DNA of 64,000 bases from Octopus vulgaris (Eukaryota). The notes beneath the pieces are model-generated. The model made no database searches, was not told the origin of the DNA, and saw only the letters and a program-made list of their open reading frames with translations. Position numbers and translations under genes: made by a program. The stretch spans positions 87,668,001 to 87,732,000 of the forward strand of contig OX597816.1 in assembly GCA_951406725.2 (NCBI GenBank), written 5' to 3'. Position 1 is the stretch's first letter. Every line of letters begins with the position of its first letter. This document shows positions 19,221-53,495 of this stretch, piece after piece.

Positions 19221-19347
19221 GTTATATATATATGTGTATATATATATATATTATATATATATATATATGTTTATATATATATATATATGTATATATATAT
19301 GTATATATATATATCTTTATATATGTATATATGTATATATATATATA

Positions 19348-19391
<44 letters not shown>

Positions 19392-19667
19392 AGTATATGT
19401 ATATATATATATGTCTATATATGTATATATATATGTATATATATATATATATGTCTATATATGTGTATATATATATATATATGTCTATATATGTGTATAT
19501 ATATATATATGTCTATATATGTATATATATATATATGTCTATATATGTATATGTATATATATATATATGTCTATATATGTATATGTATATATATATATAT
19601 GTCTATATATGTATATGTATATATATATATATGTCTATATATGTATATGTATATATATATATATGTC

Positions 19668-19698
<31 letters not shown>

Positions 19699-19953
19699 GT
19701 CTGTATATGTATATGTATATATATATATGTCTATGTATATATATATATGTCTATATATGTATATGTATATATATATATGTCTATATATGTACATATATAT
19801 GTCTATATATGTATATGTCTATATATGTATATATATATATATATATCTATATATGTATATGTATATATATATATGTCTATATATGTATATGTATATATGT
19901 ATATGTATATATGTATATGTCTATATATGTATATGTATATACATATATGTCTG

Positions 19954-19986
<33 letters not shown>

Positions 19987-20110
19987 GTCTATATATGTAT
20001 GTATATATATGTCTATATATATGTCTATATATGTGTCTACATATGTGTGTATATATGTATATATATGTGTGTATATATGTATATATATATGTATGTATGT
20101 ATCTATATAT
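19135..20110. repeat. ~1 kb (TA)n-derived compound satellite with recurring atgtctatatatgtatatgt unit
   Basis: Directly visible; source of the 398, 323 and 257 aa Y/I/M/C-rich ORFs. Confidence 0.95.
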
Positions 20111-21304
20111 TTAGTCTGTGCCTATACATACACATACATGTTTCGCTATTGTGGCGGTATGTATGTATGTATCTGTTTATCTAACTACCTTTGTGTATGT
20201 GTCTGTACATAAATGCATGTACATATGTGTGTGTGTGTGTGTGTATGTTCCATTTGTAGGCCTATATCTATATTTAATCCCCCCCCTCTATCATTCTGCT
20301 TTTCATATTTTTTTGCTCATATTCTTTATTTGTAATTCTAACCCAGTATTTGTGTGTGTGTGAGCATGCATATATAAATAATCAGAGTAAGACATTTATG
20401 AAGAGTAATACCTGTCTGTCTGTATGTCTGTCCGTGTCTGTTTGTCACTTGCAACCCACATATTTTGTATCCACAATCACAGACCACATTTTTCAAATAA
20501 TCATCATTCAATCACATTCATAGTACATATGATACTCTCCTCCACACTCTCCCCTCATCATCTCTCCCCATTCTAATACTCCTAAAGAATTTGCCAATTA
20601 TATTCTTAAAACAAAAGAATGCATTCATTAAGGCAACGACCCTCCTCCACTACAAAAAATGATAAACGCGAAAATAACACATACAAAAATCAATATCAAA
20701 ACCATGATACAAATTGTAAAACAGTATCAAAATAACCCAAAACCTAATTGCTTTTAACCTAAATATTTCAATATGGCTGTTAAAAGATGGCAGTATCTTT
20801 GAAAGTTGACAAAAGATGGACCAATTTTTGTACAAAATGTGTTGGGAGATTGACAAATAATTTGAATAATTGAACAAATTCTTTTATTCATTTTCTTGAA
20901 TTACGAAAAAAAAATGTTTGTTATGGTTTGGATTTGTGGAGGTAATGATTTTTCTTTTCTTTGTGTGCAGAGAGAGAGAGATATGTAGTGAGGTGAGTGG
21001 GAAAGAGAACACAATGGCAAGCGTATGCATAGAGAGAATTTTCTTACTCTTTTGTTCTTATCTTTAATTGAACAATTGGTATAATTTTCTGTTTTAGTAA
21101 AATTATTGCTGTGCTTTTGTTTTCTTTATCCTACCCACTCATCGTTCCCAATCCTCTAGACCACTTCTGTTATATTCATCTTTCTGTAACTTGAGGGCAT
21201 GCCCTGGCATGTCTTCACTATTTTCTCTTGTTTCCAACTGAGGTAGCAATGTATCTCCTCTCATCACATAAAGCCACCTCTCTCAATACCCCAATTACCT
21301 CAAC

Positions 21305-48350: not shown

Positions 48351-48498
48351 CACACGTGTCAATATTTTGCTGGTGGTAGTGACAATAAACAAAACACTGT
48401 GAAACAAAATGTTGAAAAAAATCAACAATGTTTATCTTCCTGTTTAATCGTTTTATTCATTTATCTTTTATTTATATATATATTTCTTCATTTTCCAG

Positions 48499-48598
48499 GA
48501 GTTGGCAATGGAATCGAATGGTTTACGAGGAACGAGACACGGCCGAACCATTATCGCATACTTATGGTTCAAGGCGATAACATGATGGTGGCAGCAAG
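48499..48598 (+). CDS. Sema1a: Semaphorin exon A (100 nt, phase 1 to phase 2): VGNGIEWFTRNETRPNHYRILMVQGDNMMVAA(R)
   Basis: Acceptor ttcttcattttccag|GA, donor GCAAG|gtgaga. Resembles the Sema-domain start FxGNExxxDHFKLxxxDxxxLLVGAR of class 1 semaphorins. Confidence 0.9.
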
Positions 48599-48827
48599 GT
48601 GAGAAAATTGCTCAAGCACTTATATTCTTGTTTCCCTCTTCAATTCATAAAGAAAACTTTTTTTTTTTATCATCTATAAATAATTATTGTTGCTTTTGTT
48701 ATTGCTGTAAGGCTAAGGTAACAAAATCCAGAACTATTCCTGGCCTGGTATGATATTGGTTTGATTCATCTCTGTGCTAAGCCTTCCTTTGATTCATAAT
48801 TTTCTCTTATATGAAATGAGCCAATCT

Positions 48828-52105: not shown

Positions 52106-52205
52106 TTTCTGTGCTGTTGTCATAGTACAAACCATACAAGAATTCTTAACACATTTGCTCCTGATCAAGGATTTACAGAACTGTCACTGCTTATTATACT
52201 ATTAA

Positions 52206-52775
52206 CCCTTTAGCATGCAGATTAGTCTGTCAAATTTAATGCTTATTTATTCATATTGCTTTGAACTAATAAAGTATTGTCTTTGAGATTTCAATGATAT
52301 CATTGTGTATTTTTAGAATGATATTTTAGGGTAGGTGTGAATCCAGGGAGTTTGAACAAAAACAAGTAGAATATTTTGGCCAGATATGGCCAGTTGAGAT
52401 GTGGCCACCTGTATCAGCAGCATGTTGTCGGACAGCTACCTTAATAAGTACCTTTACAGCTATCCCTACAGCAGCAGTGTCTGTAACAAGGAGAACCTTG
52501 AAGACTGTATTATACATTTAAACAAGCTGCTACAGAATGTGTCTACCAACAATAAGCAATATGTCCAACATCATGATCCCTCTCGTGAACATCACTTTTG
52601 ATTTATTTAAACACATTCAACAGGATACAAAGTTTCGAGAGGAACTGGAATCAAAGACATCTCGTATAATAACCGACTATGAATGCTTACAAACCTCGCA
52701 GATGTGACTCAAAGATGATATTGAAAAGCTAGAGTGGGAAATTGCAGTTCGATAAGGAAAAGAGATGCTAAAGAG
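52206..52775 (+). mobile_element. piggyBac-type MITE family A copy carrying the SSX2IP-like insert
   Basis: TTAA (52202-05) CCCTTTAGCAT ... ATGCTAAAGAG TTAA (52776-79). Body 52206-52395 matches other family A copies; the insert is bounded by a GAGATG direct repeat (52396-401, 52762-67). Confidence 0.8.
52401..52767 (+). pseudogene. SSX2IP: Decayed coding fragment resembling afadin- and alpha-actinin-binding protein (SSX2IP/ADIP/Msd1) N-terminal coiled coil
   Basis: Reads ...SSVCNKENLEDCIIHLNKLLQNV / frameshift near 52540 / LPTISNMSNIMIPLVNITFDLFKHIQQDTKFREELESKTSRIITDYECLQTSQM*LKDDIEKLEWEIAVR*GKE. By eye this is colinear with vertebrate SSX2IP (FCTEDNIEQSISYLDQEL..GFPSL...IVAVLNCMNELL...ENVE...LGSDMDHLQ...LKEQLE..RRE, recalled from memory). 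One frameshift, two internal stops, no introns. Confidence 0.68.
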
Positions 52776-53495
52776 TTAAAGTGTACCACACTGTGTTACA
52801 AGAGAATTTTTATACCAGTCATGGGCAAACTGCAGCCTGCAAAACTTGCTAAATGGCAAGCCTAAAGAAAAATTCCTTAAATTTCTTTGGCCATGCAGTC
52901 CACTTGATGATAAGCCATGCCTTTATGGTTGCCTCCTGGCTTATCAAATAGAGCTGCCTCTACATATTTTACCATTGTAGGAACCAAGTTTGAACTCTTG
53001 GCTCTGTAGTGTACAAGTTCGGCAGCTTAACCTCACAGCTAACGCTGCTTTTTAAACACAGTTCTAAAGATACATTAATTCTCTAAAAATTTTAATGTGG
53101 TTTTGATTCTCAACTCTCTAGAGTAACAATGGCAATGAGTAATCAGCTTCTTTTAAACATCCATTTCTATTTGTACTCAACTTCTATTCTCAGGGGGGAT
53201 TCTAAAATCTTTCTTCTCTCCAATTTTGTCTGTATTGTTTACCCATTTCAATTTTAAGATAGAAAGTTCTTTGGCAATTCTGATTTCCACTATCGAAAAT
53301 GAGAGCACTGAATTGACCCCAATGCAGACAAATATATGTAGATGTACGTTGATGAGAGTGACAACGGTACCGTAGGTTATGTGTGTGCATATGTGCATTT
53401 GCTTGTATCTGCATGCATGTTTGATTTGTATATATCATAACATTATATATTATATATGTATATGTAGTATATATATATATATATATATATTGTAT

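What the first reader, a model, noticed from the sequence alone, without database searches (positions are those of the whole stretch)
52202..52779. Host gene fragment (SSX2IP/ADIP-like) captured inside a piggyBac-type MITE within a semaphorin intron
Seen: other family A copies end ggccagtt-taaatg-ctaaaggg-TTAA. This copy reads ggccagtt-GAGATG-[~360 bp]-GAGATG-ctaaagag-TTAA, so the insert lies just inside the right TIR. It is bounded by a 6-bp direct repeat, and both TTAA sites are preserved. The insert is intronless, has no poly(A), and translates (one frameshift, two stops) to a coiled-coil protein resembling centrosomal SSX2IP/ADIP/Msd1. Known: TIR elements carrying host gene pieces (Pack-MULE/Pack-TIR) are documented in plants and some animals. 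Inference: this is either transposon-mediated gene capture, potentially mobile as a unit, or a short cDNA/DNA patch inserted at a break in the MITE. It lies in the sense orientation in the semaphorin pre-mRNA.
Basis: partly seen in the sequence, partly recalled or inferred. Interest (0 to 1): 0.75.

Follow-up and report, generated by a model that had tools for sequence, protein, structure and literature searches.

The report
Tailless mRNA copy nested in MITE
A 358-letter piece of a spliced octopus messenger RNA sits as a single, decaying DNA copy inside a small jumping-gene remnant in a semaphorin intron; it was likely pasted there later by a retrotransposon's reverse transcriptase rather than captured by the DNA transposon, and two more tailless pieces of the same gene lie on other chromosomes.

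Summary
Window 52406-52763 is a spliced copy of the octopus ADIP/SSX2IP-family gene on G000:C23: four exons joined, three introns (1.6-2.1 kb) missing, 21 substitutions in 358 nt, ending inside an exon at an A-rich tract with no poly(A). It is the only copy of this stretch in the genome, decays neutrally (a frameshift, two stops) and is present in four coded organisms. The host is a true piggyBac-family MITE (TTAA, 12-bp TIR, related full-length transposon found), at least twice as diverged as the insert, and the insert splits its terminal repeat from its subterminal palindrome. Best reading: a tailless, internally primed processed pseudogene nested in an old MITE. Whether GAGATG is a real target-site duplication is open, so endonuclease-primed insertion and RNA-templated break repair are not separated. 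By-products: the copy preserves a likely 34-nt alternative 5' exon, and two further tailless exonic fragments of the same gene lie on C20 (spliced) and C4. The scan noted other retrocopies in this genome before, none like this sequence.

The parts
52202..52395 (.). piggyBac-family MITE, main part (left TTAA, 12-bp TIR with one change, subterminal palindrome-like GGCCAGATATGGCC at 52379-52392)
   Evidence: ends match full-length piggyBac copies L052, L053, L055, L076 at about 81%
52396..52401 (+). left GAGATG: candidate target-site duplication, or part of flank-templated extra nucleotides
   Evidence: variant counts; 52397-52407 matches 52382-52392 at 10 of 11
52402..52405 (+). 4 extra nucleotides at the 5' junction, not from the parent gene
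52406..52420 (+). last 15 nt of a likely 34-nt alternative 5' exon of the parent (C23:50366855-50366888)
   Evidence: 14 of 15 match ending at a GT donor; only such match in 60 kb, both strands; 3 of 20000 shuffles
52421..52526 (+). copy of parent exon C23:50368483-50368588 (ATG at 52422)
52527..52655 (+). copy of parent exon C23:50370738-50370868, with a 2-nt deletion near 52536 (frameshift)
52656..52763 (+). first 108 of 169 nt of parent exon C23:50372623-50372791; stops at 52705 and 52753; ends at an A-rich tract, no tail
52762..52779 (.). right GAGATG, rest of the 12-bp TIR (two changes) and TTAA; this is the end that lies 5' of the transposase in the full-length relatives
48498..48599 (+). 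semaphorin-1A exon upstream of the host intron
   Evidence: tblastn 34 of 34 aa with P0002
53967..54015 (+). semaphorin-1A exon downstream of the host intron (end approximate)
   Evidence: tblastn with P0002 residues 83-99

Best explanation
The insert is a spliced, tailless, single-copy fragment of the ADIP/SSX2IP-family mRNA lying inside a piggyBac-family MITE, and it was likely written there by a LINE reverse transcriptase acting in trans, primed internally at an A-rich tract, after the MITE copy had already aged. Steps: (1, shown) the template was spliced RNA: four exons, three introns missing. (2, shown) the copy stops inside an exon at the most A-rich 12-nt window of the 440 nt examined, without poly(A). 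(3, inferred) a DNA 3' end at the MITE's TT/AAA-like site paired with 2-3 nt of that tract and primed reverse transcription. (4, inferred) synthesis stopped after 358 nt and the 5' end was joined with 4-10 extra nucleotides copied from the adjacent flank, leaving either a 5-6 bp duplication or a near-blunt joint. (5, shown) the copy has since decayed at a neutral-looking rate and has not multiplied. (6, inferred) by separating the terminal repeat from the subterminal palindrome the insertion would hinder transposase binding, so the composite is a fossil, not a mobile gene carrier.
For: Three consecutive exon matches on another chromosome, 93-95% identical, plus a 14/15 match to an upstream exon end at a GT donor. 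RNA-type contigs X8 and X15 cover 52421-52763 in one piece and continue into the rest of the parent exon, not into a tail. One ADIP locus over the Pfam cut-off in G000. 11 amino-acid-changing or stop changes on 249 sites (4.4%) against 9 silent on 93 sites (9.7%, both lineages together); the O. bimaculoides and O. sinensis proteins carry the parent residue at all 11 (read by eye), so the copy changed as fast at replacement sites as one lineage does at silent sites. MITE copy 12.7% from the consensus of 25 other copies, nearest copy 18.5%. Short duplications of about 5 bp and flank-derived 5' extra nucleotides are described for an L2-clade LINE (PMC4245944, passages); recently active RTE, CR1, Dong-R4, L1-Tx1 and Penelope families are listed for O. 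vulgaris (PMC13282606, Table 1 passage). In T. ni piggyBac the palindromic internal repeat at bp 17-33 binds the required CRD and a 5-bp spacing change halves activity (PMC7351741, passages).
Against: No reverse transcriptase is tied to this event; no LINE sequence is attached. The duplication is doubtful: GAGATG differs from the family consensus at two sites (1 of 1401 matches to four tested 20-mers), and the left side can equally be read as flank-templated. If GAGATG was the target, it pairs with only 2 nt of the RNA end. A subfamily of this MITE (L023, L024, L027, L028; nearest copies 3-6% apart) and full-length piggyBac copies 98.6-99.5% alike were mobile at about or after the insertion, so transposase was not absent. 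The A-rich end was tested on four exons only. The MITE age rests on 25 copies, 21 of them picked by an exact 3' 20-mer (9 of the 30 picked loci and L021 were dropped because no left end was found).
Confidence: 0.8

Rival explanations
1. RNA-templated repair of a chance double-strand break: an mRNA or pre-made cDNA piece patched a break in the MITE through short microhomologies, with no LINE endonuclease cut; GAGATG is then a coincidence of flank-templated nucleotides and one later change. It shares steps 1, 2, 5 and 6 with the best explanation and differs in the priming; I give it about 40% of the shared 0.8 plus a little more.
For: Internal, intronless, tailless mRNA pieces of 300-800 nt with short microhomology were recovered at CRISPR breaks in mouse zygotes (PMC4516963, passages). 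The second ADIP fragment on C20 sits between a SINE part and an old LINE part with a 5-nt microhomology and no duplication seen. 10 of 11 match of the left junction to the flank.
Against: A perfect 6-bp repeat at both junctions, including a base (G) that is rare at that MITE position (17 of 1401); the end falls at the most A-rich window (2 of 428 windows) and the family consensus at the site reads TTT/AAA, as endonuclease-primed events prefer.
Confidence: 0.35
2. Pack-type capture: the transposon took up the host sequence during transposition or gap repair and can move as a unit.
For: Host sequence lies between two TIRs with both TTAA intact. A related piggyBac family has open frames of 581 and 554 aa. 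Tan et al. count single-copy cases made after transposition as Pack-TIRs, including piggyBac ones (PMC8277862, passages and supplement look-up).
Against: Source is spliced RNA from another chromosome; single copy; same site in organism D; insert younger than the MITE; terminal repeat cut off from the palindrome by 366 bp.
Confidence: 0.05
3. DNA-level copy of an earlier, longer retrocopy that has since been lost or is missing from the assembly.
For: Would explain the lack of a tail; Tan et al. note such an ambiguity for an ARF6 retrogene in MER20.
Against: No other copy of this stretch in G000 by DNA, family or protein search (one search used a stricter first look); depth in four runs fits one parent plus one copy.
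Confidence: 0.05
4. A functional element: a short-lived retrogene, or a sense exon or regulatory RNA inside the semaphorin-1A transcript.
For: Starts at the parent ATG; in sense within a transcribed intron; silent changes outnumber expectation before the split from organism D (7 of 13); D's copy lacks the frameshift and the second stop.
Against: D shares the stop at 52705; silent excess is expected from the parent's own lineage; replacement rate is neutral-like; no joints to semaphorin exons could be seen in the stretch laid.
Confidence: 0.05

Closest known systems
Tailless retropseudogenes (Noll et al. 2015, PMC5322556; passages read)
   Same: 3' end inside the source RNA at an A-rich place, no oligo(A) tail, 5' truncation, short complementarity to the target.
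   Different: Described as products of relaxed L1 machinery, found in therians and the anole and not in platypus or chicken; screened duplications were 8-35 nt. Here a mollusc, a spliced protein-coding mRNA, and a repeat of 5-6 nt at most.
RT-product-mediated DSB repair in mouse zygotes (Ono et al. 2015, PMC4516963; passages read)
   Same: Internal intronless mRNA piece, truncated at both ends, no poly(A), short microhomology.
   Different: Those were at engineered breaks; this is a natural inherited insertion with a possible duplication.
Single-copy Pack-TIRs (Tan et al. 2021, PMC8277862; passages and a supplement look-up)
   Same: Host sequence inside an old TIR element, single copy, added after transposition.
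   Different: Those are explained by DNA gap filling with a bias to nearby donors and internal breakpoints; this one is RNA-derived, from another chromosome, and lies at the very end of the element.
5' junctions of L2-clade LINE inserts (Yamaguchi et al. 2014, PMC4245944; passages read)
   Same: About 5-bp duplication, 5' truncation, extra nucleotides taken from the flank.
   Different: There the LINE copies its own RNA; here a cellular mRNA.
piggyBac non-autonomous elements (T. ni piggyBac ends, PMC7351741; passages read)
   Same: TTAA target, CCC/GGG termini, short TIR followed by a palindrome-like repeat.
   Different: This copy has a 366-bp interruption between TIR and palindrome.

Membership tests
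Processed pseudogene (retrocopy) | introns of a multi-exon parent precisely missing | tested here: met
   three junctions, AG/GT-bounded parent exons; RNA-type contigs match in one piece over two of them
Processed pseudogene (retrocopy) | disabled, neutrally decaying copy away from the parent | tested here: met
   frameshift, 2 stops, 11 replacement changes on 249 sites; parent on C23, copy on C3
Processed pseudogene (retrocopy) | 3' poly(A) tail (classical L1 type) | tested here: not met
   copy ends inside an exon; parent continues AAAAG...
Tailless retropseudogene | internal 3' end at an A-rich site, no tail | tested here: met
   10 A in 12 nt, the maximum, 2 of 428 windows of the four exons
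Tailless retropseudogene | flanking target-site duplication (8-35 nt in the published screen) | tested here: inconclusive
   6-nt repeat, shorter than the screen's range and with an alternative origin
Tailless retropseudogene | target complementary to the last 2-18 nt of the RNA | tested here: inconclusive
   2 nt (GA) as the sequence stands, 3 nt (AAA) if the site was consensus-like
Tailless retropseudogene | made by relaxed L1 machinery | not testable with these tools
   no enzyme can be assigned; L1-Tx1, RTE, CR1 families are listed as recently active
Pack-TIR / Pack-MULE | host sequence enclosed by the TIRs of one element | tested here: met
Pack-TIR / Pack-MULE | capture from genomic DNA (gap filling or template switch) | tested here: not met
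   introns absent
Pack-TIR / Pack-MULE | transposition with the cargo (multicopy class) | tested here: not met
   1 copy besides the parent exons
piggyBac-family MITE | TTAA target and short TIR with CCC/GGG termini | tested here: met
   12-bp TIR in the consensus; TTAA at the expected place in 23 of 30 sampled right ends
piggyBac-family MITE | high copy number, no coding capacity, about 230 bp | tested here: met
   1367 exact 20-mer matches; 228-bp consensus
piggyBac-family MITE | ends shared with an autonomous piggyBac | tested here: met
   4 of 30 PF13843 loci are 2.6-kb elements with both ends related to the MITE, 72-83% identity: relatives, not the direct parent
RT-mediated break repair (RMDR) | insertion at a pre-existing break, microhomology, no LINE-made duplication | tested here: inconclusive
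   see the duplication question; empty site not available
ADIP/SSX2IP/Msd1 family (source gene) | ADIP domain PF11559 | tested here: met
   parent exon over the curated cut-off; copy under it; homologues carry PF11559

The most novel reading that the evidence does not exclude
The octopus germ line routinely pastes short, internally primed, tailless pieces of cellular mRNA into its genome by a poly(A)-independent route: one ordinary gene has shed three such pieces (358, 148 and 100 nt) to three chromosomes and no tailed retrocopy, so the genome may hold tens of thousands of overlooked mRNA patches that also archive rare splice forms.
Probability: 0.3. Interest if true: 0.65.

Novelty: new member of a known kind. 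Interest (0 to 1): 0.38.

Why it matters
As a single locus it is an ordinary dead retrocopy and a caution for Pack-TIR screens: host DNA between two TIRs can be a nested retro-insertion. It matters more as a lead. Tailless retrocopies have been tied to the relaxed L1 of therians and lizards; a mollusc gene with two provably spliced tailless fragments and a third exonic one suggests another enzyme or RNA-templated break repair does this often, and a junction census in one assembly would test that directly. The copy also records a likely alternative 5' exon that two RNA-type assemblies did not show.

Tried and rejected
ADAR-editing fossil (lead from earlier notes): only 3 of 21 substitutions are A>G, 14 are C>T or G>A, 7 at CpG; rejected. 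Transposon ORF as the insert's source: rejected. GAGATG as a MITE subfamily mark: 1 match against 1367; rejected. Upstream exon by an 18-nt pattern with 1 mismatch: only the window itself; found instead by local alignment. RTE signature of PMC6007223 (abstract only: duplication starting with T about 10 nt after a T stretch): not seen, as the repeat starts with G or A. Motif scan for semaphorin exons found one; replaced by tblastn with P0002. Empty orthologous site: none in runs X3, X4, X5, X9, whose unique contigs carry the insert; the joint table was flooded by repeats and cut. Expression of the copy: no RNA holder listed on record; two low-depth contigs in RNA-guessed runs X8 and X11 span the 3' junction, which intronic RNA or DNA would both give; not used as evidence. 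A tailed 3' retrocopy: none by protein search (stricter first look) or by 801 nt of last exon and 3' UTR (other hits were simple repeats). Earlier scan notes by sequence and by words: nothing. Paper searches for octopus or mollusc retrocopies and tailless forms (listings only) showed no report of this locus or class; the library lacks most subscription papers. Octopus is not named in the Pack-TIR paper's text or its 12 held supplements.

Full report
Observation. The element runs from TTAA at 52202 to TTAA at 52776-52779, with GAGATG at 52396 and 52762. Five other window stretches match its first 200 nt at 69-75%, and the alignment shows the usual end GGCCAGTT-TAAATG-CTAAAGGG-TTAA. Semaphorin-1A exons lie on the + strand at 48498-48599 and from 53967 (with P0002). 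The organism is an octopus, most likely Octopus vulgaris by the label of P0004, whose exons match the parent locus at or near 100%.

Source of the insert. A DNA search of the own genome with 52396-52767 gave 4 matches: the window and three stretches on C23, 2 kb apart, covering consecutive parts of the query at 93-95%. They are AG/GT-bounded exons (C23:50368483-588, 50370738-868, 50372623-791) of the one locus over the ADIP cut-off among 9 matches. The insert joins them exactly. Contigs of RNA-guessed runs X8 and X15 cover 52421-52763 in one piece and go on into the rest of the parent exon, so the copy ends inside an exon, after 108 of 169 nt, at a tract with 10 A in 12 nt, the maximum in the four exons (2 of 428 windows). 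There is no poly(A).

The 5' end. X8 and X15 use a first exon ending near C23:50351713, which the insert lacks. Instead 52406-52420 matches C23:50366874-888 at 14 of 15, ending at a GT donor; it is the only match of 14 or more in 60 kb on both strands, and 3 of 20000 shuffles did as well. Upstream lies a pyrimidine tract and AG that would define a 34-nt exon. I infer that a minor splice form was copied; no RNA read confirms that exon. The 10 nt before it are not from the parent.

Age and decay. The copy differs from the parent at 21 of 358 sites plus one 2-nt deletion: 9 silent on 93 sites, 9 replacement and 2 stops on 249 sites, 1 untranslated. Proteins of two other octopuses keep the parent residue at all 11, so these arose in the copy; 4.4% is about half of the two-lineage silent distance, as neutral decay from birth predicts. 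Contigs of runs from organisms A, B, C and D carry the spliced copy, those of all four running on into the right flank. D's copy has the parent letter at 7 sites and the deletion site, has 3 changes of its own, and shares 13 changes including the stop at 52705.

The host element. A consensus of 25 other copies is 228 bp with a 12-bp TIR inside TTAA; this copy is 12.7% from it (others 9.8-20.9%) and 18.5% from its nearest sampled neighbour (10 of 31 fetched loci were dropped for lack of a left end). Of 30 piggyBac-transposase loci fetched (119 matches), 4 are 2.6-kb elements whose two ends are related to the MITE; they are 98.6-99.5% alike and two have open frames of 581 and 554 aa. The MITE is therefore of the piggyBac family, and relatives were mobile recently, but this copy is at least twice as diverged as the insert. 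The insert lies between the TIR and the palindrome-like repeat next to it; by analogy with T. ni piggyBac (PMC7351741, passages) that would hinder transposition. This is inferred, not tested.

The junction. The consensus 20-mer occurs 1367 times, the two single variants 17 and 16 times, the GAGATG variant once. Reading A: this copy had both changes, and GAGATG was duplicated on insertion, with 4 extra nucleotides. Reading B: the target was consensus-like TTT/AAA, primed on the RNA's AAA; the left AGATGTGGCCA was copied from the flank (10 of 11 match to 52382-52392) and the right side changed once. I cannot separate them; organisms B and D share the present left and right junction respectively.

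Mechanism. Shown: spliced template, internal tailless end, single copy, decay, nesting in a piggyBac MITE. Inferred: reverse transcription primed at the A-rich tract by a DNA end in the MITE, most likely by a LINE enzyme in trans; short duplications with flank-derived extra nucleotides are known for an L2-clade LINE (PMC4245944), and several LINE clades are listed as recently active in O. vulgaris (PMC13282606). The rival is RT-mediated repair of a chance break (PMC4516963). Pack-type capture fails on RNA origin, copy number and age, although the loose structural definition of single-copy Pack-TIRs would include it (PMC8277862).

Further fragments. A protein search with P0007 gave 16 matches: 13 on the parent, 2 on this copy, 1 on C20. 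The C20 piece is 148 nt, 2 mismatches, crosses an exon junction with 16 nt of the upstream exon, has no tail, and lies between a SINE-like part and a LINE-like part whose best listed relatives are 71-81% identical. A search with 801 nt of last exon and 3' UTR gave 17 matches: the parent, a 100-nt piece on C4 at 97-98%, and 15 short simple-repeat hits; the C4 piece is tailless, within one exon, so its RNA origin is unproven. No intron control was run, and the 5' UTR was not searched.

Verdict. A real, well-resolved but mostly ordinary object: a tailless processed pseudogene fragment nested in an old MITE, new member of a known kind. The added interest is its occurrence in a mollusc, where my searches found no report, and the hint from three fragments of one gene that the process is frequent. 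Interest 0.38.

Noticed in passing
G000:C20:18994018-18994165 (L082:3018-3165): Second spliced, tailless fragment of the same ADIP mRNA, 148 nt, 2 mismatches, between a SINE-like part and an old LINE-like 3' part, 5-nt microhomology at its 3' end, no duplication seen.
   Followed up: partly
G000:C4:12764357-12764457 (L099): 100-nt piece of the ADIP 3' UTR, 98% identical, no tail; a 5-nt repeat TACTG near both junctions may be chance.
   Followed up: partly
G000:C23:50366855-50366888 (L012:3855-3888): Likely 34-nt alternative 5' exon of the ADIP gene with good acceptor and donor, seen only through the retrocopy; the next exon also has two acceptors (P0006/P0007 use the upstream one, X8/X15 the downstream one).
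   Followed up: partly
L052, L053, L055, L076 (G000 C15, C4, C29, C4): Young full-length piggyBac family, 2.6 kb, copies 98.6-99.5% alike, two with long open frames; ends related to the MITE.
   Followed up: partly
L023, L024, L027, L028: Young MITE subfamily whose left TIR variant equals that of the young piggyBac; nearest copies 3-6% apart.
   Followed up: partly
window 52417-53100: Run X9 (organism D) differs from the window at 10 sites and 1 indel in 347 nt of the insert but only 1 site and 1 indel in the 337 nt to its right; unexplained (chance, conversion by the parent, or a mosaic history).
   Followed up: no
L034 (G000:C1:52085829): A MITE copy whose right end is followed by a partial tandem repeat of the same end.
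   Followed up: no
window 19226-20139: Long TA-rich low-complexity array that scores as nested inverted repeats.
   Followed up: no
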